Origin: Candidatus Poribacteria bacterium
Lineage (GTDB): Bacteria; Poribacteria; WGA-4E; WGA-3G
Assembly (NCBI GenBank): GCA_958295815.1
Contig: OY282374.1
Span: 2,882,856 to 2,946,855, forward strand
DNA: 64,000 nucleotides
Direction of reading: 5' to 3'
Made by a program: the position numbers and the translations under genes. The notes under the pieces are model-generated. The model made no database searches. It saw only the letters and a list, made by a program, of their open reading frames with translations, and had not been told where the DNA came from. Positions 12,201-55,890 of the stretch are shown here, piece by piece (position 1 is the stretch's first letter; each line of letters starts with the position of its first letter).

Positions 12201-13850
<1,650 letters not shown>

Positions 13851-14015: not shown

Positions 14016-14747
14016 TTAGAATCCACGCGAATCTTTCAAACTTCCCCAAGTGACTGACAATTTCCCGACGGGATCTACATCAAGCGTCGCCTCACCCAAT
14101 GTAATCGCTGGAATGATAGGCACCGACCCTAATTCCAAGGAAAGGATGTCTATCGTTTCGATCCAAATATCGGGGCGCGGGTTTTCCCACTTTGTGGTAA
14201 TCAACCCGGCGTGTCCACAAGGACCGCCTTCTTTCATTACCCATCCCCAGACGGAGTTATCGTCTTGGAGTGCAGCATCGTCGTGGCACCAATCATCTGA
14301 GTTGAACCCTGAAATCATCTCCAGTTCTTCTTTCTTCCCGTCTCGGTAGTTCATGACAAACACATAACTTGGAACGCCGTTCTGTTCCCATCCGGTTGCG
14401 TGGAGAAAATAGACGAATTTCGCCTGGCCTTCGACGACGATATCGTTGACCGCCTTGGGCCATTTTGCTGCGTTCGTTCCAAAAACGACGATGGCACCAT
14501 CAATAATTTTGAATTCGACTTTGCCATCAGGTCCCTCAAACTCGTCAACCTTATCGATAGGCAAGCGAGAAAGTGTGCTGTCCCCTGGGTTCAGTGTCCA
14601 CCACTCGTGCTTGACCAGTTTCGTGTTTGAGAAGGGTTCTAAGTCAACAAATATCCAATCCTCTAACGCCGCGGTAGCGATTCCTGTGGAAAAGAGGCTG
14701 ACAGCACATAGCAGTACAATCAGTCCTGACAATTTAACCAGTTTCAT
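14016..14747 (-). CDS. Hypothetical secreted protein
   Basis: Signal peptide MKLVKLSGLIVLLCAVSLFSTGIATA. GGAGGA RBS. Driven by promoter/operator module copy 1. Confidence 0.6.
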   Translation of the reverse strand: MKLVKLSGLIVLLCAVSLFSTGIATAALEDWIFVDLEPFSNTKLVKHEWWTLNPGDSTLSRLPIDKVDEFEGPDGKVEFKIIDGAIVVFGTNAAKWPKAVNDIVVEGQAKFVYFLHATGWEQNGVPSYVFVMNYRDGKKEELEMISGFNSDDWCHDDAALQDDNSVWGWVMKEGGPCGHAGLITTKWENPRPDIWIETIDILSLELGSVPIIPAITLGEATLDVDPVGKLSVTWGSLKDSRGF

Positions 14748-14773
14748 GACGGATTCCTCCGATGTTAGTTTGT

Positions 14774-14848
14774 GGGATAGTATAACAGGAGTATAGACTG
14801 GTGTCTATAAATTTTGGAGGGTGTGCCAGAGAGGTTTTACGCGTCGGG
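14774..14848 (-). promoter_or_regulatory. Promoter/operator module copy 1 (TAGACA-17-TATACT on the minus strand; palindrome TATAGACTGGTGTCTATA at 14792-14809)
   Basis: About 75-bp element repeated at 16659-16740, 52325-52375 and, degenerate, at 15261-15305. The perfect 7-4-7 palindrome overlaps the -35. Confidence 0.6.
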
Positions 14849-15124
14849 TTCGTCATCTCCATATCCGCGTGCAAGGGTCTGCATAGAGAGCCGATACCAT
14901 CCTTCACGATCCAGCGATTCTTGTTCCGATTCATATTTGTCAATGAGCACCTCAACGATTTCCATTAACGAAGCCAATGGATGATTTTCATTTTCGCCGA
15001 TGAGTTCTATTAAGTGGTCTCGCAAAACAGAAAGCCGCTGATAATCGCTTTCTGTGCGTGGGACAAATATAATAGGAGTCAGTTGTGGCCATATATCTTG
15101 AGCGGTTTGTATCTCGGTTAGCAT
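14837..15124 (-). CDS. HigA-antitoxin N-terminal-domain-like protein (no HTH)
   Basis: AAGGAG RBS 5 nt upstream. The pattern LTPIIFVPRTESDYQRLSVLRDHLIELIGENENHPLASLMEIVEVLIDKYE parallels the E. coli HigA N-terminal region (APFLAGIQNEEQYTQALELVDHLLLNDPENPLLDLVCAKITAWEE). Confidence 0.45.
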   Translation of the reverse strand: MLTEIQTAQDIWPQLTPIIFVPRTESDYQRLSVLRDHLIELIGENENHPLASLMEIVEVLIDKYESEQESLDREGWYRLSMQTLARGYGDDEPDA

Positions 15125-15260
15125 ATTAACTCCTTGTTAATATTCCAAAAATTCTCCAAAATCTAATGGTTGTAACGTGAAATCGACACAAACAGGCAGT
15201 AATCGACATCCAGTGTCCAATGACATTTAATTGATATATCGGACTCGCGCTACGCCAATC

Positions 15261-15305
15261 TCTGGAATAGTATAACACAATTGAAATGATGTCTACAAAT
15301 TCTGA
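15261..15305 (-). promoter_or_regulatory. Degenerate copy of the promoter/operator module upstream of the HigA-like gene
   Basis: GGAATAGTATAACA...GATGTCTACAAATTCTG aligns with module copies 1 and 2. On the minus strand it gives TAGACA, about 15 nt, then TATACT. Confidence 0.4.
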
Positions 15306-15346
15306 TAGAAGGGTAGGAGAGCCTTTACGGCAGGCACACATCGAAA

Positions 15347-16435
15347 TTAATTTCTGCGATGTTTGTTGTAGGCAAATTCAAGAACAGGGAGAAGTTCAGA
15401 TATGGTTTTAGCTACACGATAATAGACAAAATGGACTGGTCCATGTTTGCTAATACGACAAAATTCACATCCATACTGACGTCTCAATTGTTCTGCCTCC
15501 ACTTCCACTATTCGGACAAAAACTTCAAGTGGATTCTGTCCACTAAGAATAAGTCCAAACGGTCTCTCTATTTTCAGGCTTCCCCTATATCCGAGAAAAA
15601 AACCACAACCAAAAAGACTGTTAGCAACATCCCTAAATCGCAGTTTTAATTCCCACTGTTCTTTTATAATTAAATTTATTAAGTCTGCTGAGCCTTTATA
15701 AAACGCTTCGTATACCTCTATAAGATATTTTGACTGACAGCGCTCGCTAAACCTTTGAGGTGCTGAATTTTTAACCTTCGATGCAGTCCACACACCTGTC
15801 CCAAGAAGTGTAATAAATCCAGAAGAATCTATTACCTCTGTGTGTGTCAACTCGTTACCAATTCCATCGTCATAAGGATCAGTTCTATGATTAATTGGAC
15901 TAGGTTCGGGAATATCTACTGTCCCTCGCTCCTCTAATGCGATTTCAGCATTCAATTCTGCTTCACCGGATGCCACATTCGATTTTAGGAGATATTTTTC
16001 CAAATTAGAGATAGCATTCTCCCGATTTTCAATATCGGTTTCGCAAAAAATTCTGTCACTCAAACTGGAGGCTTCCCACCGAGAGAGATAAAACCGCCAG
16101 AGTTTTCCGTTCGTAATTATGGCAAGCGGAATATTTCCGCTATAAGCGTAAAAACAGATTTGCTGCTGGTTTCTTTCGATTGGTTGATCCCATCGCTTGC
16201 ATTCAATGAGCACCGCAGGACTTTCTTCTCGTATGATGTGTAAGGCATAATCAGCCCTTCTACTTTCAACCTTATATTCCGGCAAGATTTCCATAGACGC
16301 TAAATTGGTATCATCCCACCCTAAAGCCCGCAGAATTGGTAAGACAACATATTGCTGAATGGTCGCCTCATTGGCTTCCTCTAAGTGGTGCTTGTGCTCA
16401 AGAATATGGGAAATCGTGTTTCTCAAATCATTCAT
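15347..16435 (-). CDS. HsdR_N / PD-(D/E)xK nuclease-domain protein with a C-terminal domain of unknown function
   Basis: VLPILRALGW...EYKVESRRADYALHI...PAVLIECKRW...NGKLWRFY matches the type I restriction-enzyme R-subunit N-terminal / Mrr-like D...E-x-K core. Start uncertain (16435 or 16492). Confidence 0.6.
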   Translation of the reverse strand: MNDLRNTISHILEHKHHLEEANEATIQQYVVLPILRALGWDDTNLASMEILPEYKVESRRADYALHIIREESPAVLIECKRWDQPIERNQQQICFYAYSGNIPLAIITNGKLWRFYLSRWEASSLSDRIFCETDIENRENAISNLEKYLLKSNVASGEAELNAEIALEERGTVDIPEPSPINHRTDPYDDGIGNELTHTEVIDSSGFITLLGTGVWTASKVKNSAPQRFSERCQSKYLIEVYEAFYKGSADLINLIIKEQWELKLRFRDVANSLFGCGFFLGYRGSLKIERPFGLILSGQNPLEVFVRIVEVEAEQLRRQYGCEFCRISKHGPVHFVYYRVAKTISELLPVLEFAYNKHRRN

Positions 16436-16490
16436 GCAAAATTTTCCTAAGTTGTAAGAATTGATAAAATTTCTGGCAGGACTAACACAC

Positions 16491-16568
16491 ATGTCGCCCC
16501 GCTGGGGCTAAAGCGGGGAACAGCATCTGCCACTATAGACATATCGCCCCGCTCGGGCTTTAACACAT
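16491..16568 (-). promoter_or_regulatory. Structured 5' leader with duplicated GC hairpins (GCCCCGC...GCGGGGC) ahead of gene 15347-16435
   Basis: Two direct repeats (ATGTCGCCCCGCTGGGG / ATATCGCCCCGCTCGGG) form 6-7-bp GC stems between the promoter module and the start codon. Confidence 0.35.
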
Positions 16569-16658
16569 TTTCGAGTCGGCTTAAAAGTTTCCCCGACGAT
16601 TGATGAAAAGGCATCTAAAAACGTGAGGAAATAACATTTATTATTTTAAGGTAGCAAC

Positions 16659-16740
16659 TTGGATTAGTATAACAGGGATTATAAACTGGTGTCTATAAAT
16701 TTTGGAGGGTATGCCAGAGGGATTCTGCGCGTAGGTTAGA
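16659..16740 (-). promoter_or_regulatory. Promoter/operator module copy 2 (TAGACA-17-TATACT on the minus strand; core TTATAAACTGGTGTCTATAA)
   Basis: Near-identical to 14774-14848. Its upstream flank is fused to the TAGCAACTTGGATTA tail of the 100-bp repeat family. Confidence 0.55.
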
Positions 16741-16758: not shown

Positions 16759-17844
16759 TTAATGGGATTTTTTTAGTTCTCCCCAGTGCGTTGGAAGTTT
16801 GTCTTTTGCTTCAACGGGACGAAAGCCGGTATCATATGCCTCAACAATTGGCGAGAATCTTCCGGCTCCCATGTAACCACCTAAGGCATAGATTGTACCA
16901 TTAACAACAACCGTCATTGTAGTTTTTAGGCTTGTCATTGGCTCTATTTTGCGCCATGTGTTGACTGTTGGATCATAAATATCAACATTACCGATGTATT
17001 TAAGCTCATTTTCCAACCTCATACCACCTATTGTATACACCTCATTATCGACAGCAACGGTTTCAAACCAGCCTTTGAACATTGGCATGTCAGGGAGCTG
17101 ACGCCACTTGTCGGTCTTTGGATTATATTCTTCAATACTTTTAACGAAACGTTCGGGAAGACCGGGGACCCACCGCCAAGTATAACCACCGAGAACATAA
17201 ATTTTACCGCCTACAACGACAGCATCAGTCTGCCCTCGTTCTGTCGGCATGTCTGCGCGCTTCTCCCATCTATTAGTCAACGGATCATAGACCTCAACGA
17301 GACCTGTTGCCTCACCATCACCAAGTTTTTTGTCGAGAACACGTCCACCGATGACGTATATCTTTCCATCAACGACAGCGGTAGTGAAGCCGTCACGAAG
17401 TATTGGCATATTCCGCTTTTTGACCCATGTGTCGGTTCCTGTGTCATACATCTCGACGTTCTTTTTGTATCTCCTCGCACCCCGATGGCCTTTTCGATCA
17501 TATCCTCCAAACACATAGATTTCGTTGGAAAAAACTGCAGTTTGCGGCGTAACCCGCGGTGTTGGCATATTTGCAGCTGCGTGCCATGTCTTCGTCTGCG
17601 TGTCGTAGACATCTACTGTTGAAAGCGCAGGCGCACCACCCCCTAAATTTTCATGGTGATCGAAACCACCAATGAGATAAATTTCACCCTTGACAACAGC
17701 AGCGGCATCACCTATGCGCCATGTTGGCAGTTCGGACACCTGTTCCCAATCACGAGCAAAACTGCTGGAAACAACAACGAGTAAGAGGGTAAAAACCCAT
17801 TGCAAATACCTGTATTTTGCGAGCATAATGTTCTCCTTAGACAT
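16759..17844 (-). CDS. Kelch-repeat beta-propeller protein (secreted)
   Basis: Signal peptide. Repeated GG-Y/F-D blocks with the W/Y spacing typical of Kelch blades. Confidence 0.8.
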   Translation of the reverse strand: MSKENIMLAKYRYLQWVFTLLLVVVSSSFARDWEQVSELPTWRIGDAAAVVKGEIYLIGGFDHHENLGGGAPALSTVDVYDTQTKTWHAAANMPTPRVTPQTAVFSNEIYVFGGYDRKGHRGARRYKKNVEMYDTGTDTWVKKRNMPILRDGFTTAVVDGKIYVIGGRVLDKKLGDGEATGLVEVYDPLTNRWEKRADMPTERGQTDAVVVGGKIYVLGGYTWRWVPGLPERFVKSIEEYNPKTDKWRQLPDMPMFKGWFETVAVDNEVYTIGGMRLENELKYIGNVDIYDPTVNTWRKIEPMTSLKTTMTVVVNGTIYALGGYMGAGRFSPIVEAYDTGFRPVEAKDKLPTHWGELKKSH

Positions 17845-18107: not shown

Positions 18108-19817
18108 TTATTCTTTTCGCTTTGGCACAGCAGGTTCGACGTATAGTGTCTTTTCGCGTGTGTAATGTACATAGCCTGCGACGTTGCCTTTTCGTTTGAC
18201 GACATAACGCGCCCATGTGTAGTCAACAGGGACATTGCTAGCATGGTGCGCTTTGCTGTAATAAGCGGCGAGTTGCGCGGCTTGTAATAAGGTCGGCATC
18301 GGGATGTCTTGTCGGTTCTCTGGGTTACGGATGATTACGTGTGAACCGTGTATCTGCTTGGTATGGAGCCACATATCACGCGGTTTAGCGATTTGACGTA
18401 AGAGCAGGTCGTTGGATTGGCTGTTTCGTCCAACGTATATCTGAAATCCGTTGGTAGAGGTGTATTTTCGGAAAGGACCGTCGCTTGCTTCCTGTTTCTG
18501 CTTCCCGCGCTGTGAGGACTTAATGTAGCCATTGGTAACAAACTCGGTGCGGAGACGTTGGAGTGTTTGTAAAGTGTCAGCGGATTCCAATTTGGATACA
18601 CAAAGCCGCAGTGTCTCCTGCTCCGCCTCAAGGTCTGAAATTAGCTGCAGGATACGCGACCGTCCGCGTTTCGCTTTCGTATACTTCTTGAAATAAGCCT
18701 GTGCGTTCTCGGAAGGGGTCTGCTCAGGGTCGAGAGGAATTACCAACATTTCCAGTTCAGGACTGTAGTAGTTCTGCAACTCGACCTGTTTTTGTCCACG
18801 GGTAATGTTATGTAAATTGGCGAGTAGCAATTCTCCCTGAATACGGTAATCTTCTGATTTCTCTGCCCGTTCTAAGTCGTTACACAGCCCATCTGCTTTT
18901 CGCTGAAGTAGATTCTCCTGTTTCTTCAACGCCTGCGTAAGCGCATGCTGTTCTGAATCCATAAGCTCCTTCAGCGTGATTGCATCGTAGTATGCCCCGA
19001 GTGCTTCGTTCATTGTCTCGAATGCTTGACAAAAGGCTTGCGGAAATTGATGCAGGGGCAGTGGAGATGCGGCAATCGGTTCATCGTTATCCATAAGCAG
19101 TTGTGGTGTGGCATGCTTTGGATCGAAATAGGCTATAACTTGCTGATAGGCATCCCAGAGCTCTGTCTCCGCTGCGCGTGCGACGACCTCTTTTGCGAGT
19201 GTAGGACCGAAGCCGTCAATCTTATTGAAAAGCTGCCGCCAACTCACTTGAGCCTGTCCGCCAACAAGTTCGGTAAACGCCGCTTTGTCTAACGTCAGCG
19301 GATCCAACTTCTCCTGTTGTGGTGGTAAAGTGTAAGTCTCACCGGGCATAACCTCGCGGTGCCGACTCATTGTCTCGTCGATGCGTTTGAGACTCTCTAA
19401 GATCCGATCATCCTCTGTATCAACAAGAATGATGTTGCTATATTTCCCCATGCACTCCGCTATAAGGGCTTTCGGGGAGGGTTGTATAGGATCATCGGAA
19501 ACGGGTTGGACGGTTATCTTGAGTATCCGATCCCAACCGAGTTGTTCAATCTCGGTGATTGTGCCACGTCTGAGATGCGTTGTGAGGAAGTCCGCAAGAT
19601 AAGACTGTTTCTGTCCAGGTGGCGGCTTTTCGATGAGGTGTGCTCGTGCATGCAGCGAATGTGCCGATAACGTGAGCCAATGGTTTTCTGCAGCGCGACC
19701 GATTTTGAATGAAAAAGTGTGTGCGTTCGCCTGTTCAATGTGCCGAATCGTGCTACCTAAAAGGGCATCGCGCAGCTCATGAACGACAAAACGGAGAGCT
19801 AAACTATCGTAAGACAT
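18108..19817 (-). CDS. NFACT-family ribosome quality-control protein (RqcH / FbpA-like) with C-terminal NFACT-R (DUF814)
   Basis: N-terminal NFACT-N-like region. C-terminal YVGRNSQSNDLLL...DMWLHTKQIHGSHVIIR matches DUF814. Confidence 0.75.
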   Translation of the reverse strand: MSYDSLALRFVVHELRDALLGSTIRHIEQANAHTFSFKIGRAAENHWLTLSAHSLHARAHLIEKPPPGQKQSYLADFLTTHLRRGTITEIEQLGWDRILKITVQPVSDDPIQPSPKALIAECMGKYSNIILVDTEDDRILESLKRIDETMSRHREVMPGETYTLPPQQEKLDPLTLDKAAFTELVGGQAQVSWRQLFNKIDGFGPTLAKEVVARAAETELWDAYQQVIAYFDPKHATPQLLMDNDEPIAASPLPLHQFPQAFCQAFETMNEALGAYYDAITLKELMDSEQHALTQALKKQENLLQRKADGLCNDLERAEKSEDYRIQGELLLANLHNITRGQKQVELQNYYSPELEMLVIPLDPEQTPSENAQAYFKKYTKAKRGRSRILQLISDLEAEQETLRLCVSKLESADTLQTLQRLRTEFVTNGYIKSSQRGKQKQEASDGPFRKYTSTNGFQIYVGRNSQSNDLLLRQIAKPRDMWLHTKQIHGSHVIIRNPENRQDIPMPTLLQAAQLAAYYSKAHHASNVPVDYTWARYVVKRKGNVAGYVHYTREKTLYVEPAVPKRKE

Positions 19818-19869: not shown

Positions 19870-20808
19870 CTAATGATACGGTTTTAAGCTGGGCATCACT
19901 TTGCGGAGTTGTTCTTGAATTTCAGATGGAACGCGTGGATTAAACGGACCGCCAGCACCTGCCACAATATCGTCAAAGCCACTTAAGATCATCGCTTCAA
20001 CAACAGCGGAATAATTATAGACGCGTTCATTCATGAAACGGATCTCCTCGAGGGGTGCGATATCGGCTTCAATGCGTGCTGATGTATCATAATCACCACG
20101 GCGTTGGGCGTTGTTAATTTCGTCCGAAGCGCGGGCGAAGGCGACAGCAATACCGGAGGTATGCCCCTTCGTTCCTAATTGCGCAGGACGCGTGCATCTG
20201 TCACCGATGCCCCACATCACGATTCCACTGCTACCCACTCCTTCTACGAGGGGTTCTACATCCTCTTCACCGGTCCCAATCTTCACACCGACAAAATGTG
20301 GGGAATCGTTTAGCAGACGGATGACTGCGGACAGATCGCGTTTCTGACGGAAATAGTAGAGGAACCGTGCGCCACAAGTAGAGCCGTAGGTTTCGCCGAA
20401 TTTCATGTACTCGTCGTAGACCCCTTCAGGATTAGAAATTCCGGTCAGTGGCATGAGCAGATACACATCAGGCGGTCTTTGAAGTTCTGACTGTGCTTCG
20501 ATGAGTTGCCCGGCTTGACGGATGGGATTCGGTACGACGCCAGACATGAGGATACCGTTTTCACCCATTTGTCGTCCAGTTTGGTCGATAAGGCGGAGTT
20601 GTTCGGTTTCATTGATGTGGTGGATTAGGCTCGTCCCGGCAATAGCAATGACGCGCGGTCTGCCTTGATCAAGGTAGTTGTTCCCCATTAAATAGTCAAT
20701 GTTTTTGGCATGTCCAGTGTAGTCAATTTTGTCGTCTTTGAAAGGGATAATAGGGATCGCAGTGACGGAATTGAGGTCGTCTAAAAGTTGTGGTATCTCT
20801 GATGGCAT
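19870..20808 (-). CDS. Dihydrodipicolinate synthase/N-acetylneuraminate lyase family (DapA-like) TIM-barrel aldolase
   Basis: Length and conserved blocks typical of the DHDPS family. Substrate not assignable. Confidence 0.55.
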   Translation of the reverse strand: MPSEIPQLLDDLNSVTAIPIIPFKDDKIDYTGHAKNIDYLMGNNYLDQGRPRVIAIAGTSLIHHINETEQLRLIDQTGRQMGENGILMSGVVPNPIRQAGQLIEAQSELQRPPDVYLLMPLTGISNPEGVYDEYMKFGETYGSTCGARFLYYFRQKRDLSAVIRLLNDSPHFVGVKIGTGEEDVEPLVEGVGSSGIVMWGIGDRCTRPAQLGTKGHTSGIAVAFARASDEINNAQRRGDYDTSARIEADIAPLEEIRFMNERVYNYSAVVEAMILSGFDDIVAGAGGPFNPRVPSEIQEQLRKVMPSLKPYH

Positions 20809-23205: not shown

Positions 23206-25071
23206 TTACTTTAGAATCAGCATTTTGCGGAGTTGAGAAGTGTTCTGCGTCTGTAGATGATAGAAATAGATACCACTCGCAACCGGTTCACCGATTTCAT
23301 TTTTGCCATCCCAATAGGCAGCACGACTCTTATCGGTATAGTAGCCGTCGCGTTGATGTCCGAGTTTAAGTTGACGGATAAGGGTGCCCCGCGAATTATA
23401 AATGCTGATTTGAACGTCACTCGAATTCGCTAAATGATAGGGTATCCATGTCTCGGGGTTGAATGGGTTGGGATAGTTGGCGAGAAGCAGTGTCTTCTCT
23501 GGACGTGTTGAGAATAAAATCTCTTCTATTAGCGTAATTACCTGCTTGTATTTCGCTGAGCCATCGCTCTCGAGTCGTAAATTACGCAGATATGTCCGTA
23601 GTGTTTCACGATCTACTGCTTTGAGCGTTTTCTCCGCCATGACTGTGTTCAAAATGCTGTTTGAAGGTGCTGCGTTATCGTCTGTTGTATCATTCAGCAC
23701 TTTGATAAAGAGTCTAATTGTATCTGAACCGCCATTGCCATCAGTGACTGTAACTATTGTTTTATGAACTTTCTGAGTCTCAAAATCTAATTCAGCAACA
23801 GTTTGGAGCTGTCCAGTGCTGCTATCAATGCTAACGACTACTTCATTGTCGTGACTAATGGAGTAATTCAAGGTGTCACTATCTTCATCCGTAGCTGGTA
23901 TGGGTTCACCGAATTCTGTCCCTATAGCTATGTTTTCTGTGACAGTACGACGCATGCTTTTTTTGCCATTATTGATTACGGGTGCATTATTAGTAGCATC
24001 GTCGCTTGTGTCGTTAGTGATATTGATAGTGACATCAATTGAATCTGAACCTCCATTATTATCCGAGACTGAGACCGTTACTTCATAGGAAGTCTTTGTT
24101 TCATAATCCAGACTTGCACTCGTCTTTAACTGACCTGTACCGCTGTCGATAGCAAATGAATTCTCATCAGTCCCGCCAAGTGTGTACGTTAAAGTGTCGT
24201 CGTCGGCATCCGTCGCACTTATTGCGTTACCGAAGTTTGTACTTGATGCTGTATTTTCTGTGACTGAACGCGTCGTGGTATCACCATCATCGAACACCGG
24301 AGCATTGTTATTGTTGCTTGCGGCAGCAGTGCCATTGATAGTGACAACAATTGATCCCTGTCCACCCTTTCTATCAAGGGCTGTGATCTGCAATTCAACT
24401 GATGTCCCGGCATCGATCCCCATATCATTGCGATTCGTTACCAACTGTCCGGTGCTGGTATCAAGGTCAAATCGGGATAATATCCAGAAAAAGCCGAAAT
24501 TCCCGAATGGGCTAATCACGTATGTCAATGTGTCGTCATCTGGATCCGTCGCTGTAAAAGGATCACCGAGCAGCGTTCCTTTAGGTGCGTCTGTTGCAAC
24601 CGAACGGGTCGCCGTTTCACCCGCATCGAACACGGGTGCGTTGTTAACATTGATCGTGACAGCAATTGTGTCTGAACCGCCATTACCATCCGAGACTGTG
24701 ACCGTTACTGAGAAGGTCCCATTAGTATAGTCGATGTCAGCACCCACTTTTATCCGTCCGATATCGATGGTGCCATCATGAATGGTGACGTTATCAATGG
24801 TGAATGAAGCCGCATCGGTGCCACTAAGACTGTACGTCAATGTGTCGTCGTCATCATCCGTTGCTCTAATGGAATCAACGGTTCTACCTTCTGGACTGTC
24901 ATTTAGGACCCAAATCGTCGTGCTATCACCATCATCAAACACCGGGGGGTTATTCGCATAACTTATACTTTGGTTGGATAACAGCGTTATGCTGAGAACC
25001 AACACAATAACTTTTAGGCTCATTTGGTGAAGAACCTTCATTTTACTTGACCTCCATTTAAGACTGTTCAA
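23206..25071 (-). CDS. Cadherin-like-repeat surface protein with T9SS C-terminal sorting domain
   Basis: Repeated NAPVFDDGD...ATDADDDTLTY cadherin-like units. C-terminus NYPNPFNPETWIPYHL...VQISIYNSRGTLIRQL...WDGKNEIGEPVASGIYFYHLQ matches the T9SS type-A CTD. Confidence 0.7.
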   Translation of the reverse strand: MNSLKWRSSKMKVLHQMSLKVIVLVLSITLLSNQSISYANNPPVFDDGDSTTIWVLNDSPEGRTVDSIRATDDDDDTLTYSLSGTDAASFTIDNVTIHDGTIDIGRIKVGADIDYTNGTFSVTVTVSDGNGGSDTIAVTINVNNAPVFDAGETATRSVATDAPKGTLLGDPFTATDPDDDTLTYVISPFGNFGFFWILSRFDLDTSTGQLVTNRNDMGIDAGTSVELQITALDRKGGQGSIVVTINGTAAASNNNNAPVFDDGDTTTRSVTENTASSTNFGNAISATDADDDTLTYTLGGTDENSFAIDSGTGQLKTSASLDYETKTSYEVTVSVSDNNGGSDSIDVTINITNDTSDDATNNAPVINNGKKSMRRTVTENIAIGTEFGEPIPATDEDSDTLNYSISHDNEVVVSIDSSTGQLQTVAELDFETQKVHKTIVTVTDGNGGSDTIRLFIKVLNDTTDDNAAPSNSILNTVMAEKTLKAVDRETLRTYLRNLRLESDGSAKYKQVITLIEEILFSTRPEKTLLLANYPNPFNPETWIPYHLANSSDVQISIYNSRGTLIRQLKLGHQRDGYYTDKSRAAYWDGKNEIGEPVASGIYFYHLQTQNTSQLRKMLILK

Positions 25072-27737: not shown

Positions 27738-27957
27738 CATAAATCGGGCTTACAAAGCCCTCCTACAAGAATGGCTGGATCACTACATAAATCGGGCTTA
27801 CAAAGCCCTCCCACAAGAAAAGCCCTTCCACAAGATGGATCGGTTTATTACATAAATCGGGCTTACAAAGCCCTCCCACAAGAAAAGCCTCCCACAAGAT
27901 GGGTTGGGTTATTACATAAATCGGGCTTACAAAGCCCTCCTACAACGGAGAACTTTC
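27738..27957 (+). repeat. Tandem array (4 units, about 55-60 bp period) of the REP-like hairpin AAATCGGGCTTACAAAGCCCTCC[C/T]ACAA
   Basis: Four direct copies separated by AGAAAAGCC..CACAAGATGG..TTATTACAT spacers. The ORF track reads through them as a false N-terminus of lnt. Confidence 0.85.
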
Positions 27958-32748: not shown

Positions 32749-32797
32749 GGTGAAGATACGATTCAGTACCGTATATTAAAATGTGAGTTTGTAAAAA

Positions 32798-33349
32798 ATG
32801 AGGACCGCGCCGCCCCTCCTTACAGAAAGGTTGATACTTCGCTCATTTACACTTGACGATGCCGCCGATGTGCAACGGCTTGCTGGCGATTACGATGTTG
32901 CCTCAACATTAACCAATATGCCACATCCTTATGAAGATGGTATGGCGGAAGAATTTATGCACGTCTGCTCCGAGAAATTTGAGAAAAACAAAGCTTTAAA
33001 CTTCGCAATTACGCTGAGAACAGACAAAAACTTCATTGGCGAAATAGAACTTAGACTCGATCAAGAAAACAAGAGCGGTGAACTCGGTTATTGGATTGGG
33101 AAACCGTATTGGAACTCTGGGTATTGCACCGAGGCAGTAAGGGCTGTTGTTGCATACAGTTTTAAGGTGTTGAAGCTGCATCGAATTCACGCTAAATACT
33201 TCAAACGCAACCCTGCCTCTGGACGGGTGCTGGAAAAAATCGGGATGCGTTATGAAGAGAGTCGCCGAGAATATGTAAAAAAATCGGATAGTTTTGAAGA
33301 TTTTAGGGTGTACGGGATCTTAAAAGCAGATTTCGACCCTAATTCGTAA
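32798..33349 (+). CDS. GNAT family N-acetyltransferase (RimJ/RimL-like), paralog 1
   Basis: TERLILRSFTLDDA...ELGYWIGKPYWNSGYCTEA...HRIHA is typical of RimL-like GNATs. Confidence 0.8.
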   Translation: MRTAPPLLTERLILRSFTLDDAADVQRLAGDYDVASTLTNMPHPYEDGMAEEFMHVCSEKFEKNKALNFAITLRTDKNFIGEIELRLDQENKSGELGYWIGKPYWNSGYCTEAVRAVVAYSFKVLKLHRIHAKYFKRNPASGRVLEKIGMRYEESRREYVKKSDSFEDFRVYGILKADFDPNS

Positions 33350-33368
33350 GTTGTGAGTTGATAAAAAG

Positions 33369-33953
33369 ATGAGGAGCATACCGACTCTCGAAACAGAAAG
33401 ATTGATACTCCGCTCGTATACGCTTGAAGACGCGCCTGATTTGCAACGGCTTATTGGCGAATACGATGTCTCATCAACATTACCCGGTGTTCCGCATCCT
33501 TACGAAGATGGTATGGCGGAGGAATGGATTCGCTCTTGTTCCGACAAGTTTGAAAAAGACGAAGCCCTACATTTTGCGATTACGCTGAGAACAGATAGGA
33601 ACTTCATTGGCGGGATAGGCATTAAACTCGATCGAAAGAATGAGAGAGGAGAGATCGGTTATTGGGTAGGCAAACCGCATTGGAGCCGTGGGTATTGCAC
33701 CGAGGCAGCACGTGCTCTTGTTACGTATAGTTTTGAAGCGTTGAAGTTGAATCGAATTCATGCTTATTATTTTACACGAAACGCTGCCTCCGGACGAGTT
33801 ATGGAAAAAATCGGGATGCGCTATGAAGGGTGTTTCCGGCAACATGTAAAGAAATGGGATAATTTTGAGGATATAATGGTATACGGGATCTTAAAATCAG
33901 ATTTCGACCAATTTAATGCCGATGCCGTCCCAAGGGACATAAATGAGATTTGA
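33369..33953 (+). CDS. GNAT family N-acetyltransferase (RimJ/RimL-like), paralog 2 (tandem duplicate)
   Basis: About 60% identical to the upstream paralog, with identical motif order. Confidence 0.8.
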   Translation: MRSIPTLETERLILRSYTLEDAPDLQRLIGEYDVSSTLPGVPHPYEDGMAEEWIRSCSDKFEKDEALHFAITLRTDRNFIGGIGIKLDRKNERGEIGYWVGKPHWSRGYCTEAARALVTYSFEALKLNRIHAYYFTRNAASGRVMEKIGMRYEGCFRQHVKKWDNFEDIMVYGILKSDFDQFNADAVPRDINEI

Positions 33954-42010: not shown

Positions 42011-42297
42011 ACGGCACACGGAGTGTGTCTGCTACTCCTGTTACGGCACATGGAGTGTGTCTGCTACTTTTAACTCACGACAACGGCACACGACGGAGTG
42101 TGTCTGCTACTTTTAACCCACGACAACGGCACACGGAGTGTGCCTACTACTTTTAACTCACGACAACGGCACACGGAGAGTGTCTGCTACTCCTGTTACG
42201 GCACACGGAGTGTGCAGCGTTTATTATTGACATCTCACTGCTTTCGGGGTGTCTGCTACTCCTGTTACGGCACACGGAGTGTGCCTACTACTTTTAA
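42011..42297 (+). repeat. Tandem array (about 7 units, 33-43 bp) of hairpin repeat ACGGCACACGGAGTGTG[C/T]CT[A/G]CTAC...
   Basis: Units alternate between a ...CTGCTACTCCTGTT form and a ...CTACTACTTTTAAC[T/C]CACGACA form. The hairpin core is GGCACAC-GGA-GTGTGCC. Two more copies at 1256-1351. Spurious ORFs 41733-42307 run through it. Confidence 0.85.
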
Positions 42298-42309
42298 GGA
42301 TTCTTGAAA

Positions 42310-43158
42310 ATGAAGACGGTGCTGGCGTACCTTGAATTGGCACGCCCTCTCAACGGAATTATCGCTTTTATCTCGGCATGGCTCGGAGGGGTATTCGCAA
42401 GCCGAGGTGACACAGAAAACCTTTTAGACGTCCGTCTGTTGTTAGTTTCTATCGCTGCATTACTCCTACTATCCGCAGGGAACGCTATAAACGATTATTG
42501 TGATTACAATATAGACCGAATTAACCGTCCACAGAGACCACTCCCTTCCGGACGAATTCAGAGACTACACGCCGTGATTTTCGCAATAGTTCTGATGGTA
42601 ATTGGCATCTGGCTTGGAACACTTATTAGTAAAAGTGCTATAATCTTTGCAATCCTCGTAGCCGTTGCCCTGATCGGTTACGCTTTCTGGCTAAAACGCA
42701 CCCCTTTTGTAGGCAATTTGGTTGTCAGCGGCTTAACGGGTTCTACCTTCATTGCGGGAGGCATCGCGATAGACTCGGTGCAGGGCACACTGGTTCCAGC
42801 TATCTTTGCGTTCTTGTTCACAGCAGCACGAGAGATTATCAAAGACCTTGAAGATACAGAGGGTGATCTGAAAAACAGCGTTAAAACACTTGCGATCCTC
42901 AATCCACGTCTTGCTGTAGGAACAGCACTTGGTTTCATGGCACTCGTTATTTTGTTCAGTCCTATCCCGTATCTATTCGGATGGTACTCATGGCATTATC
43001 TGTTTGCGGTTGTACTCGGTGTTGACTTAGTTCTAATCGGATTGGCAATTCGGCTGTTGCGTGATACTTCCAAAGAGAGTTGTGCTGCCATTCAACGCTG
43101 GATGAAATGGGACATATTCGTGGGACTCGGTGCGATCTACATCGGAATATTTTTATGA
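42310..43158 (+). CDS. UbiA-family prenyltransferase (digeranylgeranylglyceryl-phosphate synthase-like)
   Basis: Eight to nine TM helices. Asp-rich motif NAINDYCDYNIDRINRPQRPLPSG (the UbiA NDxxDxxxD box). Encoded next to GGGPS. Confidence 0.7.
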   Translation: MKTVLAYLELARPLNGIIAFISAWLGGVFASRGDTENLLDVRLLLVSIAALLLLSAGNAINDYCDYNIDRINRPQRPLPSGRIQRLHAVIFAIVLMVIGIWLGTLISKSAIIFAILVAVALIGYAFWLKRTPFVGNLVVSGLTGSTFIAGGIAIDSVQGTLVPAIFAFLFTAAREIIKDLEDTEGDLKNSVKTLAILNPRLAVGTALGFMALVILFSPIPYLFGWYSWHYLFAVVLGVDLVLIGLAIRLLRDTSKESCAAIQRWMKWDIFVGLGAIYIGIFL

Positions 43159-45244: not shown

Positions 45245-45340
45245 GGAATTCGGGGTTACAAACCCCTCCCACAATGTGAAAATTACTTCAAACGCTTTGT
45301 TGAAGCATCTAAAACTTGTTAGTAGCAACTTGGATTAAAA
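45245..45340 (+). repeat. 100-bp composite intergenic element, copy A (REP hairpin GGGGTTACAAACCCC + TCCCACAATGTGAAAATCACTTCAAACGC... + TAGCAACTTGGATTA tail)
   Basis: Shares more than 85% identity with 55794-55890 and 62692-62776. Has internal palindromes GTGAAAATCAC and AAACG...CGTTT. Confidence 0.85.
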
Positions 45341-55793: not shown

Positions 55794-55890
55794 AGAATTC
55801 GGGGTTACAAACCCCTCCCACAATGTGAAAATCACTTCAAACGCTTATTGAAACGTTTAAAGCCTGTTAATAGCAACTTGGGTTAGATTA
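55794..55890 (+). repeat. 100-bp composite intergenic element, copy B
   Basis: GAATTCGGGGTTACAAACCCCTCCCACAATGTGAAAATCACTTCAAACGCTTATTGAAACGTTTAAAGCCTGTTAATAGCAACTTGGGTTAGATT. Confidence 0.85.

What the first reader, a model, noticed from the sequence alone, without database searches (positions are those of the whole stretch)
14774..16740. About 1.9-kb segment flanked by direct repeats, carrying a HigA-like antitoxin-domain gene and a PD-(D/E)xK (HsdR_N) nuclease-domain gene: candidate small defence/TA-like island
The two best-conserved module copies, 14774-14848 and 16659-16740, are direct repeats. They bracket a HigA-N-terminal-like ORF of 95 aa with an excellent AAGGAG RBS but no HTH and no adjacent toxin. 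They also bracket a 362-381-aa protein. That protein's N-terminus has the type I restriction R-subunit N-terminal / Mrr-like nuclease core (D in ADYAL; E-x-K in IECK) fused to an uncharacterised C-terminal domain. Its 5' leader, 16491-16568, contains duplicated GC hairpins. Standalone HsdR_N-domain proteins paired with antitoxin-like partners are under-characterised.
Basis: partly seen in the sequence, partly recalled or inferred. Interest (0 to 1): 0.65.

Follow-up and report, generated by a model that had tools for sequence, protein, structure and literature searches.

The report
Promoter-repeat-flanked nuclease gene and toxin-antitoxin remnant
The repeat-flanked 1.9-kb segment in this sponge-symbiont (Poribacteria) genome is not a two-gene defence island but a patchwork at a variable spot beside groEL: an old resident restriction-like nuclease gene and a broken antitoxin gene, separated by three copies of a neighbouring gene's promoter.

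Summary
Two direct repeats of about 75 nt (87% identical) bracket a 95-aa ORF and an HsdR_N nuclease-domain gene, and a third, more diverged copy lies between the genes. All genes are on the minus strand.

The repeats are copies of the sigma-70-like promoter and 5' flank (TAGACA-N15-18-TGTTATACT) of the next gene, ORF243, which precedes groEL. That promoter sits at the same place in 20 related Poribacteria loci.

The nuclease gene is 362 aa, not 381. It has an invariant D...ExK motif and dN/dS of 0.17-0.24. It occupies the same slot, DHDPS-NFACT-(HicB-like)-HsdR_N-(ORF243)-groEL, in 21 of 34 species-representative loci (15 with all five genes), so it is not imported cargo. About half of those loci carry a small HicB-family gene upstream of it. 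Here that gene is replaced by a Kelch gene plus a promoter copy.

The 95-aa ORF is a 3'-truncated copy of a 110-aa antitoxin-like gene. Its normal downstream partner, a PemK/MazF-like toxin, is absent from the window. So the two genes are not partners.

The closest relative found lacks exactly this 1.85-kb stretch, so the presence/absence difference is real. Whether it was gained here or lost there is unresolved.

This is ordinary mosaic evolution with two modestly new details: a lineage-restricted C-terminal domain shared with a GmrSD protein, and recurrent promoter duplication.

The parts
14773..14848 (-). Module copy 1. This is the promoter and 5' flank directly upstream of ORF243 (-35 TAGACA 14807-14802, extended -10 TGTTATACT ending at 14779). 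It is the orthologous position of the conserved ORF243 promoter. Its upstream edge supplies the stop codon of ORF95.
   Evidence: Promoter scan. Repeats. Matches the HsdR_N-ORF243 intergenic module of other Poribacteria loci. Junction alignment.
14837..15124 (-). ORF95: a 3'-truncated orphan copy of a 110-aa antitoxin-like gene. 93 codons are homologous to the family (the tblastn match runs 94); the last two codons and the stop come from the module. The PemK/MazF-like toxin partner is absent.
   Evidence: Alignment A2, where homologues are 110 aa and end ...DEPEYTTDMLKWVNPDYEGK. The partner toxin overlaps by 14 nt in L035-L040 and matches PF02452 at 23.8/24.4 bits against a 23.1 cut-off. tblastn finds no toxin in the window. 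dN/dS is 0.15 against L035.
15125..15262 (-). 5' leader of ORF95. The last ~45 nt (...ATTTTGGAGAATTTTTGGAATATTAACAAGGAGTTAATATG) are shared with the toxin-antitoxin cassette leader in L035.
   Evidence: Sequence comparison.
15263..15346 (-). Module copy 2, the most diverged copy. It is joined to the 3' end of the nuclease gene as in orthologous loci, and now lies 5' of ORF95 (-35 TAGACA 15295-15290).
   Evidence: Aligns with L041 4727-4809 and with the modules of L012, L018 and L033.
15347..16435 (-). HsdR_N-family gene, 362 aa. Residues 1-170 form a PD-(D/E)xK nuclease domain (D62, E78, K80). Residues ~172-205 are a low-confidence linker. Residues ~205-362 form a lineage-restricted alpha/beta C-terminal domain.
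   Evidence: Pfam. Invariant residues. AlphaFold models with pLDDT 75.7 (full length) and 89.7 (C-domain). Foldseek hits to the nuclease domains of BpuSI, HsdR and DrdV. The C-domain gives only weak hits to DUF419/YjbR/MotA-CTD. The C-domain also occurs on a GmrSD protein. dN/dS is 0.17-0.24.
16436..16659 (-). Long 5' leader of the nuclease gene, with two REP-like GC hairpins (16489-16509 and 16539-16559) and the motif TAATCCAAGTTGCTA next to module 3.
   Evidence: Hairpins of the same type lie upstream of the orthologue in L012 and L033. No Rfam match. No terminator-like site in the scan.
16660..16740 (-). Module copy 3: a duplicate of the ORF243 promoter and 5' flank. It starts ~20 nt after the Kelch stop codon and ends right after the -10 box (-35 TAGACA 16695-16690, -10 ending at 16666). 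It now lies 5' of the nuclease gene.
   Evidence: L054 9123-9160 aligns to both module 3 and module 1. Junction alignment.
14016..14747 (-). Flank: ORF243, a conserved predicted secreted protein with no Pfam family. It is the gene to which the promoter module natively belongs. A terminator (13994-13974) and then groEL (13835..12201) follow.
16759..17826 (-). Flank: Kelch-repeat gene (355 aa by homologues). It occupies the place of the HicB-like gene of other genomes. In L054 it is followed directly by the module and ORF243.

Best explanation
The segment is a mosaic at a variable spot that is conserved across the phylum Poribacteria, between the NFACT gene and ORF243-groEL.

(1) The 362-aa gene is the long-standing resident of this spot. 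It is a stand-alone restriction-type PD-(D/E)xK nuclease with a variable, lineage-restricted C-terminal domain that probably recognises DNA or another target. In about half of related genomes a small HicB-family gene precedes it. Here that gene and the native upstream region are replaced by a Kelch gene plus a duplicate of the ORF243 promoter. That duplicate is now the only recognisable promoter 5' of the nuclease gene.

(2) ORF95 is what remains of a two-gene PemK/MazF-type toxin-antitoxin cassette that sits at this same site in L035. A deletion with AACCY(G)A microhomology removed its last 16-17 codons and the whole toxin gene, and joined it to the sequence that follows the Kelch gene.

(3) The 'direct repeats' are therefore three copies of one host promoter region, created by duplication-type rearrangements. 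They were not made by a recombinase or transposase. As direct repeats they can also drive deletion, which would give the arrangement seen in L054.

Shown: the identity of the repeats, the synteny, the truncation, the absence of partners, the indel and the intact nuclease motif. Inferred: promoter activity, the order and direction of events, nuclease activity, and the role of the C-terminal domain.
For: Repeats are a promoter. All three carry TAGACA, a 15-18-nt spacer and TGTTATACT on the gene strand. The same element lies upstream of ORF243 in 20 other loci.

Synteny. DHDPS-NFACT-(HicB)-HsdR_N-(ORF243)-groEL is present in 21 of 34 species-representative loci, 15 of them with all five genes. 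HicB-like sequence (intact or decayed) lies directly upstream of the nuclease gene in 14 of the 34, and also in L041-L043 and L035/L036. HicB is fused to the nuclease in P0041.

Breakpoints. Against L041, the window has Kelch, module 3 and the leader where L041 has HicB and REP hairpins. It also has an extra 446 nt (ORF95) with the module matched twice. Against L054 (85-88% nt identity), the window has an extra 16665..14817, and L054 9123-9160 matches both module 3 and module 1.

Toxin-antitoxin remnant. The homologues are 110 aa. The PemK-like partner overlaps by 14 nt in L035-L040. L035 carries the intact pair at the same site, between the nuclease gene and ORF243. The junction shows microhomology.

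Parallel case. L008 carries an independent tandem duplication that places a module copy, plus 27 codons of ORF243, in front of a second nuclease gene.

Nuclease. The C-domain is also found on a GmrSD_N+GmrSD_C protein. The N-domain is conserved (median 82% identity) and the C-domain variable (median 40%), with domain reshuffling between homologues.
Against: The direction of the 1.85-kb indel is not resolved. Modules 1 and 3 are 87% identical, but module 3 is only about 75% identical (my count on the alignment) to the L054 module. That fits a duplication or insertion younger than the split between the window genome and L054, or gene conversion.

The nuclease gene's dS against L041 (0.80) is lower than that of the flanking genes (1.3-1.4). 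Kelch dS against L054 (0.25) is lower than its flanks (0.55-0.74). So parts of the locus were probably exchanged between lineages, which leaves room for re-acquisition of the segment.

Promoter function is only a consensus match, and the spacer of module 2 is 15 nt. No transcription data exist. The fold assignment of the C-domain is not significant (E >= 0.02). Nothing here shows that the nuclease is active or has a defence role.
Confidence: 0.72

Rival explanations
1. Mobile defence/toxin-antitoxin island. The 1.9-kb unit moves as one piece and integrates into the ~75-nt repeat, which acts as its attachment site.
For: There is a clean presence/absence difference against L054, with the repeat present once there. 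The segment has lower GC than its flanks. The nuclease gene's dS is lower than that of flanking genes against L041. Sponge-symbiont genomes are reported to be rich in defence genes (PMC5649159 and PMC5099237, titles and abstracts only).
Against: There is no integrase, transposase or tRNA gene. The repeat is the host ORF243 promoter, conserved at that place in genomes that have only one copy. The nuclease gene is in the same slot in 21 species-representative loci. A third repeat copy splits the 'unit'. ORF95 is a truncated fragment of a different cassette. No full-length relative occurs in the plasmid or phage collections; only the N-domain matches, at 24-31% identity.
Confidence: 0.08
2. A working two-gene module. 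The nuclease acts as a toxin or effector and ORF95 as its HigA-like neutraliser or regulator, having been recruited after both lost their original partners.
For: Both ORFs are intact and each has a promoter-like copy and a ribosome-binding site. ORF95 shows dN/dS of 0.15 against L035. The nuclease has lost its usual HicB-like neighbour.
Against: Among the loci examined the two families are adjacent only in L035/L036, where the 110-aa gene has its own overlapping PemK toxin. The nuclease stands alone, without HicB, in many genomes: NFACT ends within about 30 nt of its start in L002, L003, L005, L018 and L025. It therefore needs no neutraliser. ORF95 lacks the conserved last 16-17 residues. The low dN/dS mostly reflects history before the truncation.
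Confidence: 0.05
3. Selected co-regulation. The three promoter copies are kept because they put the nuclease gene, ORF95 and ORF243 under one common control, for example one regulator that binds the TATAGAC-N4-GTCTATA palindrome.
For: There are three consecutive genes, each with a copy, and the -35 and -10 boxes are preserved in all three. Module 1 has a 7-bp palindrome, with one mismatch in module 3. L008 independently placed a copy in front of a nuclease gene.
Against: The palindrome is not conserved in orthologous modules. The arrangement with copies upstream of the nuclease gene or ORF95 was seen in only one genome. A neutral by-product of rearrangement explains the data equally well.
Confidence: 0.15

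Closest known systems
Stand-alone PD-(D/E)xK nucleases with the type I restriction R-subunit N-terminal domain (Pfam PF04313/PF13588); nuclease domains of HsdR (EcoR124I, V. vulnificus 3H1T), BpuSI and DrdV
   Same: The domain match is above the Pfam cut-off. D...ExK is invariant. The predicted fold superposes on these nuclease domains. Short 'type I restriction endonuclease' or 'endonuclease' genes with this domain alone occur on plasmids and phages.
   Different: There is no helicase/translocase part, no methyltransferase or specificity genes nearby, and no fused methyltransferase. The protein carries a C-terminal domain found in only 24 cluster representatives out of 1.84 billion. The gene is chromosomally syntenic across a phylum.
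PemK/MazF-type type II toxin-antitoxin pairs (antitoxin gene first, overlapping the toxin gene)
   Same: In L035-L040 the 110-aa gene overlaps a 113-116-aa PF02452 protein by 14 nt. The pair occurs at different loci, once next to a type ISP restriction enzyme.
   Different: In the window only 93-94 of 110 antitoxin codons remain and the toxin is gone. The antitoxin-like protein matches no known antitoxin family. It resembles the N-terminal helices of E. coli HigA only weakly (E = 0.054) and has no DNA-binding domain.
HicB-family antitoxins (PF15919/PF05534), normally partnered with HicA
   Same: A 75-81-aa HicB-family gene lies directly upstream of the nuclease gene in many Poribacteria and is fused to it in P0041.
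   Different: There is no HicA. The partner would be a nuclease of about 360 aa. HicB is absent in about half of the genomes and in the window, so it is not an obligatory neutraliser.
MmcQ/YjbR (DUF419) and phage T4 MotA C-terminal 'double-wing' DNA-binding domains
   Same: These are the best structural matches of the C-domain with any consistency: 2A1V prob 0.92, 2FKI TM 0.42/0.55, MotA TM about 0.5.
   Different: No match is significant (E >= 0.02) and there is no sequence similarity. Treat this as a lead only.
Repeat-mediated tandem duplication and deletion, and microhomology-mediated rearrangement, in bacterial chromosomes
   Same: A segment is bracketed by ~75-nt direct repeats of host sequence. 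One junction shows 5-6 nt of microhomology. A single-copy 'empty' allele exists in a relative. L008 has a textbook tandem duplication at the same site.
   Different: The repeat here is a whole promoter, so each rearrangement leaves the downstream gene with a promoter and gives one to the newcomer.

Membership tests
PD-(D/E)xK nuclease, HSDR_N domain (PF04313) | Profile match above the curated cut-off | tested here: met
   32.9 bits against 25.1; PF13588 at 25.1 against 25.0.
PD-(D/E)xK nuclease, HSDR_N domain (PF04313) | Catalytic D ... (D/E)-x-K residues present and conserved | tested here: met
   D62, E78 and K80 are invariant in 35 family members.
PD-(D/E)xK nuclease, HSDR_N domain (PF04313) | Restriction-endonuclease-like alpha/beta fold | tested here: met
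   The model matches BpuSI, 3H1T, DrdV and EcoR124I HsdR with probability 0.95-1.0 and E of 2e-3 to 2e-2.
Type I restriction enzyme R subunit | SF2 helicase/translocase domains, with adjacent hsdM and hsdS genes | tested here: not met
   The protein is 362 aa with no helicase domain. Its neighbours are the Kelch gene, ORF95 and ORF243.
Type II toxin-antitoxin pair (PemK/MazF type) | Adjacent toxin gene | tested here: not met
   tblastn with two PemK-like partners finds nothing in the 64-kb window (best E = 0.037 over 13 aa). The toxin is present in L035-L040.
Type II toxin-antitoxin pair (PemK/MazF type) | Full-length antitoxin | tested here: not met
   95 aa against 110 aa. The conserved C-terminal ...EYTTDMLKWVNPDYEGK is missing.
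HigA antitoxin | XRE-type helix-turn-helix domain | tested here: not met
   No Pfam or NCBIfam HTH hit.
HigA antitoxin | Detectable homology to the HigA N-terminal toxin-binding region | tested here: inconclusive
   hhalign of A2 against E. coli HigA (sequence verified as PDB 5IFG_B): 53 columns, 26% identity, E = 0.054. HigA is not among the PDB profile hits. One homologue is labelled HigA by JGI.
Genomic island or integrative element | Integrase, recombinase or transposase gene, or insertion at a tRNA gene | tested here: not met
   The segment has only the two genes, neither of them a recombinase. There is no tRNA gene in 8-24 kb.
Genomic island or integrative element | Variable presence in an otherwise conserved context | tested here: inconclusive
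   The segment is absent from L054. However, the nuclease gene is present at the same slot in 21 species-representative loci, with several decayed copies among them. Loss explains this as well as gain does.
HicAB-like pair | HicB-family gene adjacent to its partner | tested here: not met
   There is no HicB-like sequence in the window. It is present in relatives. HicA was not seen in any locus whose genes were listed.

The most novel reading that the evidence does not exclude
The ~75-nt ORF243 promoter region next to groEL may be a recurrent acceptor site that works without a recombinase. On this reading, different Poribacteria lineages have independently inserted or duplicated defence-type genes there: the toxin-antitoxin cassette in L035, the tandem nuclease gene in L008, and the two extra copies in the window. 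Each event would regenerate the promoter, so newcomers are expressed at once and are later removed by repeat-mediated deletion. The resident HicB-like gene plus the PD-(D/E)xK nuclease with its new C-terminal domain (also found on a GmrSD type IV enzyme) would then be an undescribed defence system restricted to Poribacteria.
Probability: 0.15. Interest if true: 0.6.

Novelty: new member of a known kind. Interest (0 to 1): 0.3.

Why it matters
Mostly as a correction. Direct repeats around small 'defence-looking' genes need not mark a mobile island. Here they are duplicated host promoter, and the two genes are leftovers of two different modules.

Two side results may be useful:
- A phylum-wide, frequently decaying HicB-like/nuclease gene pair lies beside groEL in Poribacteria. 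Its nuclease carries a very narrowly distributed C-terminal domain that is shared with a GmrSD-type enzyme, which makes it a candidate accessory domain of restriction nucleases.
- The same promoter has been duplicated in repeated, independent rearrangements. This shows how new genes can acquire expression signals at a variable locus in uncultured sponge symbionts.

Tried and rejected
- Look-ups by exact sequence failed for the window's own proteins and for P0001 and P0002. The source genome and the 6.15-Mb relative could therefore not be read.
- An exact-pattern scan of metagenome contigs for the module allele found nothing.
- A metagenome scan with the Kelch protein gave only distant paralogues of 39% identity or less.
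- PADLOC and NCBIfam gave no meaningful family for any of the three proteins.
- Rfam found nothing in 13.8-17.0 kb. The leader's fold is not exceptional, z = -1.8, so a riboswitch or structured-leader reading was dropped.
- The 71-aa ORF 15126..15341 and the 55-aa ORF 16447..16614 were dismissed. They lie over module 2 and over the REP hairpins, and the one scanned (the 71-aa ORF) has no Pfam hit.
- An integron or attC reading was considered and dropped. There is no integrase, the modules lack long imperfect inverted repeats, and their conserved core is a -35/-10 pair.
- I recalled the E. coli HigA sequence from memory, then verified it against PDB 5IFG before use.
- A literature search found only general statements on defence-gene enrichment in sponge symbionts, and nothing on a HicB/HSDR_N pairing.
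Full report
**What is in the sequence.**
All genes between 12.2 and 20.8 kb are on the minus strand. In the direction of transcription the order is:

- DHDPS (20808..19870)
- NFACT (19817..18108)
- a Kelch-repeat gene (17826..16759)
- module 3 (16740-16660)
- a 224-nt leader with two REP-like hairpins
- an HsdR_N-domain gene (16435..15347)
- module 2 (15346-15263)
- a 138-nt leader
- ORF95 (15124..14837)
- module 1 (14848-14773)
- ORF243 (14747..14016)
- a terminator
- groEL (13835..12201)

They are 87% identical over 60 nt, plus a further 17 nt at 88%. They are far beyond chance: a pattern built from them has 0.00 expected matches. A third, more diverged copy lies between the two genes. The window has no further copy.

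**What the repeats are.**
On the gene strand each module reads TAGACA, a spacer of 15-18 nt, then TGTTATACT. This is a sigma-70-like -35 box with an extended -10 box (spacer counts).

I retrieved 34 loci from species-representative genomes with the nuclease protein. All are Candidatus Poribacteria or unnamed metagenome-assembled genomes. In these, the window modules match only one place: the intergenic region just upstream of the ORF243 orthologue. A regular-expression search finds that promoter once per locus, at that position, in 20 related loci. The 5' untranslated region (…CACAAATTAACATAGGAGGAA…ATG) is conserved as well.

The repeats are therefore copies of the promoter and 5' flank of a conserved host gene. 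They are not element ends.

**The nuclease gene is an old resident, not cargo.**
The order DHDPS-NFACT-(HicB-like)-HsdR_N-(ORF243)-groEL is present in 21 of the 34 loci, and all five genes are present in 15 of them.

The protein matches PF04313 above its cut-off. D62 and E78-x-K80 are invariant in 35 members. All homologues start at MNDLRN, which gives 362 aa rather than 381. An AlphaFold model (pLDDT 75.7) has an N-terminal domain that matches the nuclease domains of BpuSI, HsdR and DrdV. The gene is under purifying selection, with dN/dS of 0.17-0.24.

The gene is nevertheless dispensable. It is truncated or frameshifted in several species (L019, L028, L030-L034) and absent from L054.

HicB-like sequence (75-81 aa when intact) lies directly upstream of it in 14 of the 34 loci, and also in L035, L036 and L041-L043. 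It is fused to the nuclease in P0041. In other genomes NFACT ends within about 30 nt of the nuclease start, so HicB is not obligatory. The window has no HicB-like sequence.

**The C-terminal domain.**
Modelled alone it is confident (pLDDT 89.7, pTM 0.86). It has no significant structural neighbour. The recurring weak matches are DUF419/YjbR and the T4 MotA C-terminal 'double-wing' DNA-binding domain.

An exhaustive HMMER search of 1.84 billion cluster representatives finds only 24 proteins with this domain. Most that I scanned are HsdR_N proteins. One, P0378, is a GmrSD_N+GmrSD_C protein, a type IV restriction family, that carries the domain at its C-terminus (32% identity over 146 aa).

Within the family the N-domain is conserved (median 82% identity to the window protein) and the C-domain is variable (median 40%). 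The two domains are reshuffled between alleles. This pattern, together with the GmrSD fusion, suggests an accessory or recognition domain of restriction-type nucleases. That is inference, not demonstration.

**ORF95 is a broken half of a different module.**
It has 206 homologues. The full-length ones are almost all 110 aa and end in …DEPEYTTDMLKWVNPDYEGK. The window copy diverges after DEP and stops two codons later, inside module 1.

In L035-L040 the 110-aa gene overlaps, by 14 nt, a 113-116-aa gene that matches PemK/MazF (PF02452; 23.8 and 24.4 bits against a cut-off of 23.1). This is the classic layout with the antitoxin gene first. The pair occurs at two different chromosomal places, one of them next to a type ISP restriction enzyme.

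In L035 the intact pair lies exactly between the nuclease gene and ORF243, and the toxin's stop codon falls inside the -35 box of the module. The window contains no PemK-like sequence.

hhalign against E. coli HigA (sequence verified as PDB 5IFG_B) gives E = 0.054 over 53 columns. There are no profile hits otherwise.

**Breakpoints.**
I compared the window with two related loci.

- *L041 (78-80% nt identity).* The window has Kelch, module 3 and the leader where L041 has the HicB-like gene and REP hairpins. It also has an extra 446 nt (15266..14821) carrying ORF95. L041's single module matches both module 2 and module 1.
- *L054 (85-88% identity; DHDPS-NFACT-Kelch-module-ORF243-groEL).* This is the closest relative found. 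The window has an extra 16665..14817, and L054 9123-9160 matches both module 3 and module 1.

The left junction lies immediately after the -10 box. The right junction joins the antitoxin gene near codon 93-94 to the sequence that begins 20 nt after the Kelch stop codon. The shared motif at that junction is AACCY(G)A.

A 72-nt 'target duplication', junction microhomology and the absence of any recombinase point to duplication- or replication-type rearrangement. Homology-assisted illegitimate recombination is also possible. Neither transposition nor site-specific integration fits.

L008 shows an independent, textbook tandem duplication at the same site. There a module copy plus 27 codons of ORF243 is fused in frame to a second nuclease gene.

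**What remains open.**
Two histories are possible. The window lineage may have gained the 1.85-kb stretch, or L054 may have lost it by recombination between modules 3 and 1.

Favouring loss, the nuclease gene is ancestral at this slot. Favouring recent duplication or re-acquisition:

- Modules 1 and 3 are more alike (87%) than module 3 and the L054 module (about 75% by my count on the alignment).
- The nuclease gene's dS against L041 (0.80) is below that of the flanking genes (1.3-1.4).
- The segment is AT-richer than its flanks.

Kelch also has an unusually low dS against L054: 0.25 against 0.55-0.74 for its flanks. The locus is evidently a recombination mosaic.

**Verdict.**
The nuclease domain, the antitoxin-like ORF without a toxin, and the real indel all hold. 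The segment is not a coherent defence or toxin-antitoxin island, and its two genes are not partners. It combines a resident restriction-like nuclease gene that has lost its frequent HicB-like neighbour, an orphaned and truncated antitoxin gene, and three copies of a host promoter.

I score interest at 0.3 and classify the finding as a new member of known kinds. The C-terminal domain and the recurrent promoter duplication are the only points worth a follow-up.

Noticed in passing
window 27738-27945; also 4035, 23016, 36334, 45244, 55793, 62692: A REP-like hairpin family, TCGGGGTTACAAACCCCTCC(C/T)ACAA, has 10 copies, including four in tandem at 27.7-27.9 kb. Three copies are followed by a shared ~60-nt tail that ends in TAGCAACTTGG(A/G)TTA.
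   Followed up: no
window 42011-42316 and 1260-1369: An array of at least 7 hairpin units, ACGGCACACGGAGTGTGCCTACTAC, has a period of about 40 nt. The period looks too short for CRISPR spacers. Two more copies lie at 1.3 kb.
   Followed up: no
window 16652-16666, 45323-45337, 55871-55885; L035 2432-2446; L003 near 7230: The 15-nt motif TAGCAACTTGG(A/G)(T/C)TA recurs in intergenic regions in either orientation, in this genome and in other Poribacteria. Its role is unknown.
   Followed up: partly
L008 7030-8400 (OZ219753.1): An independent tandem duplication gives nuclease gene 1, a module copy, the first 27 codons (signal peptide) of ORF243 fused in frame to nuclease gene 2 (= P0055), a second module and then ORF243.
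   Followed up: yes
L004, L019, L028, L030-L034: The HicB-like/nuclease pair is frameshifted or truncated in several Poribacteria species while its flanks stay intact. This indicates repeated decay of a dispensable module at a fixed locus.
   Followed up: partly
P0378 (775 aa), P0369 (812 aa): The lineage-restricted C-terminal domain of the nuclease also ends a GmrSD_N+GmrSD_C (type IV restriction) protein and an 812-aa protein with no Pfam domain.
   Followed up: partly
window 14016-14747 and orthologues: ORF243 is a predicted secreted 243-aa protein with no Pfam family. It is conserved immediately upstream of groEL across Poribacteria, with an unusually conserved promoter and 5' untranslated region. 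No groES was seen next to this groEL.
   Followed up: no
window 16759-17826 against L054 8001-9068: The Kelch gene has a much lower synonymous divergence from L054 (dS 0.25) than the flanking NFACT, ORF243 and groEL genes (0.55-0.74). This suggests a more recent exchange of this eukaryote-like gene between lineages.
   Followed up: partly
window 23691-24954 and 32793-33663: Internal ~320-nt periodic repeats lie within a long coding region at 23.7-25.0 kb. A 300-nt pair at 76% identity, 571 nt apart, lies at 32.8-33.7 kb. These are probably repeated protein domains or paralogous genes.
   Followed up: no
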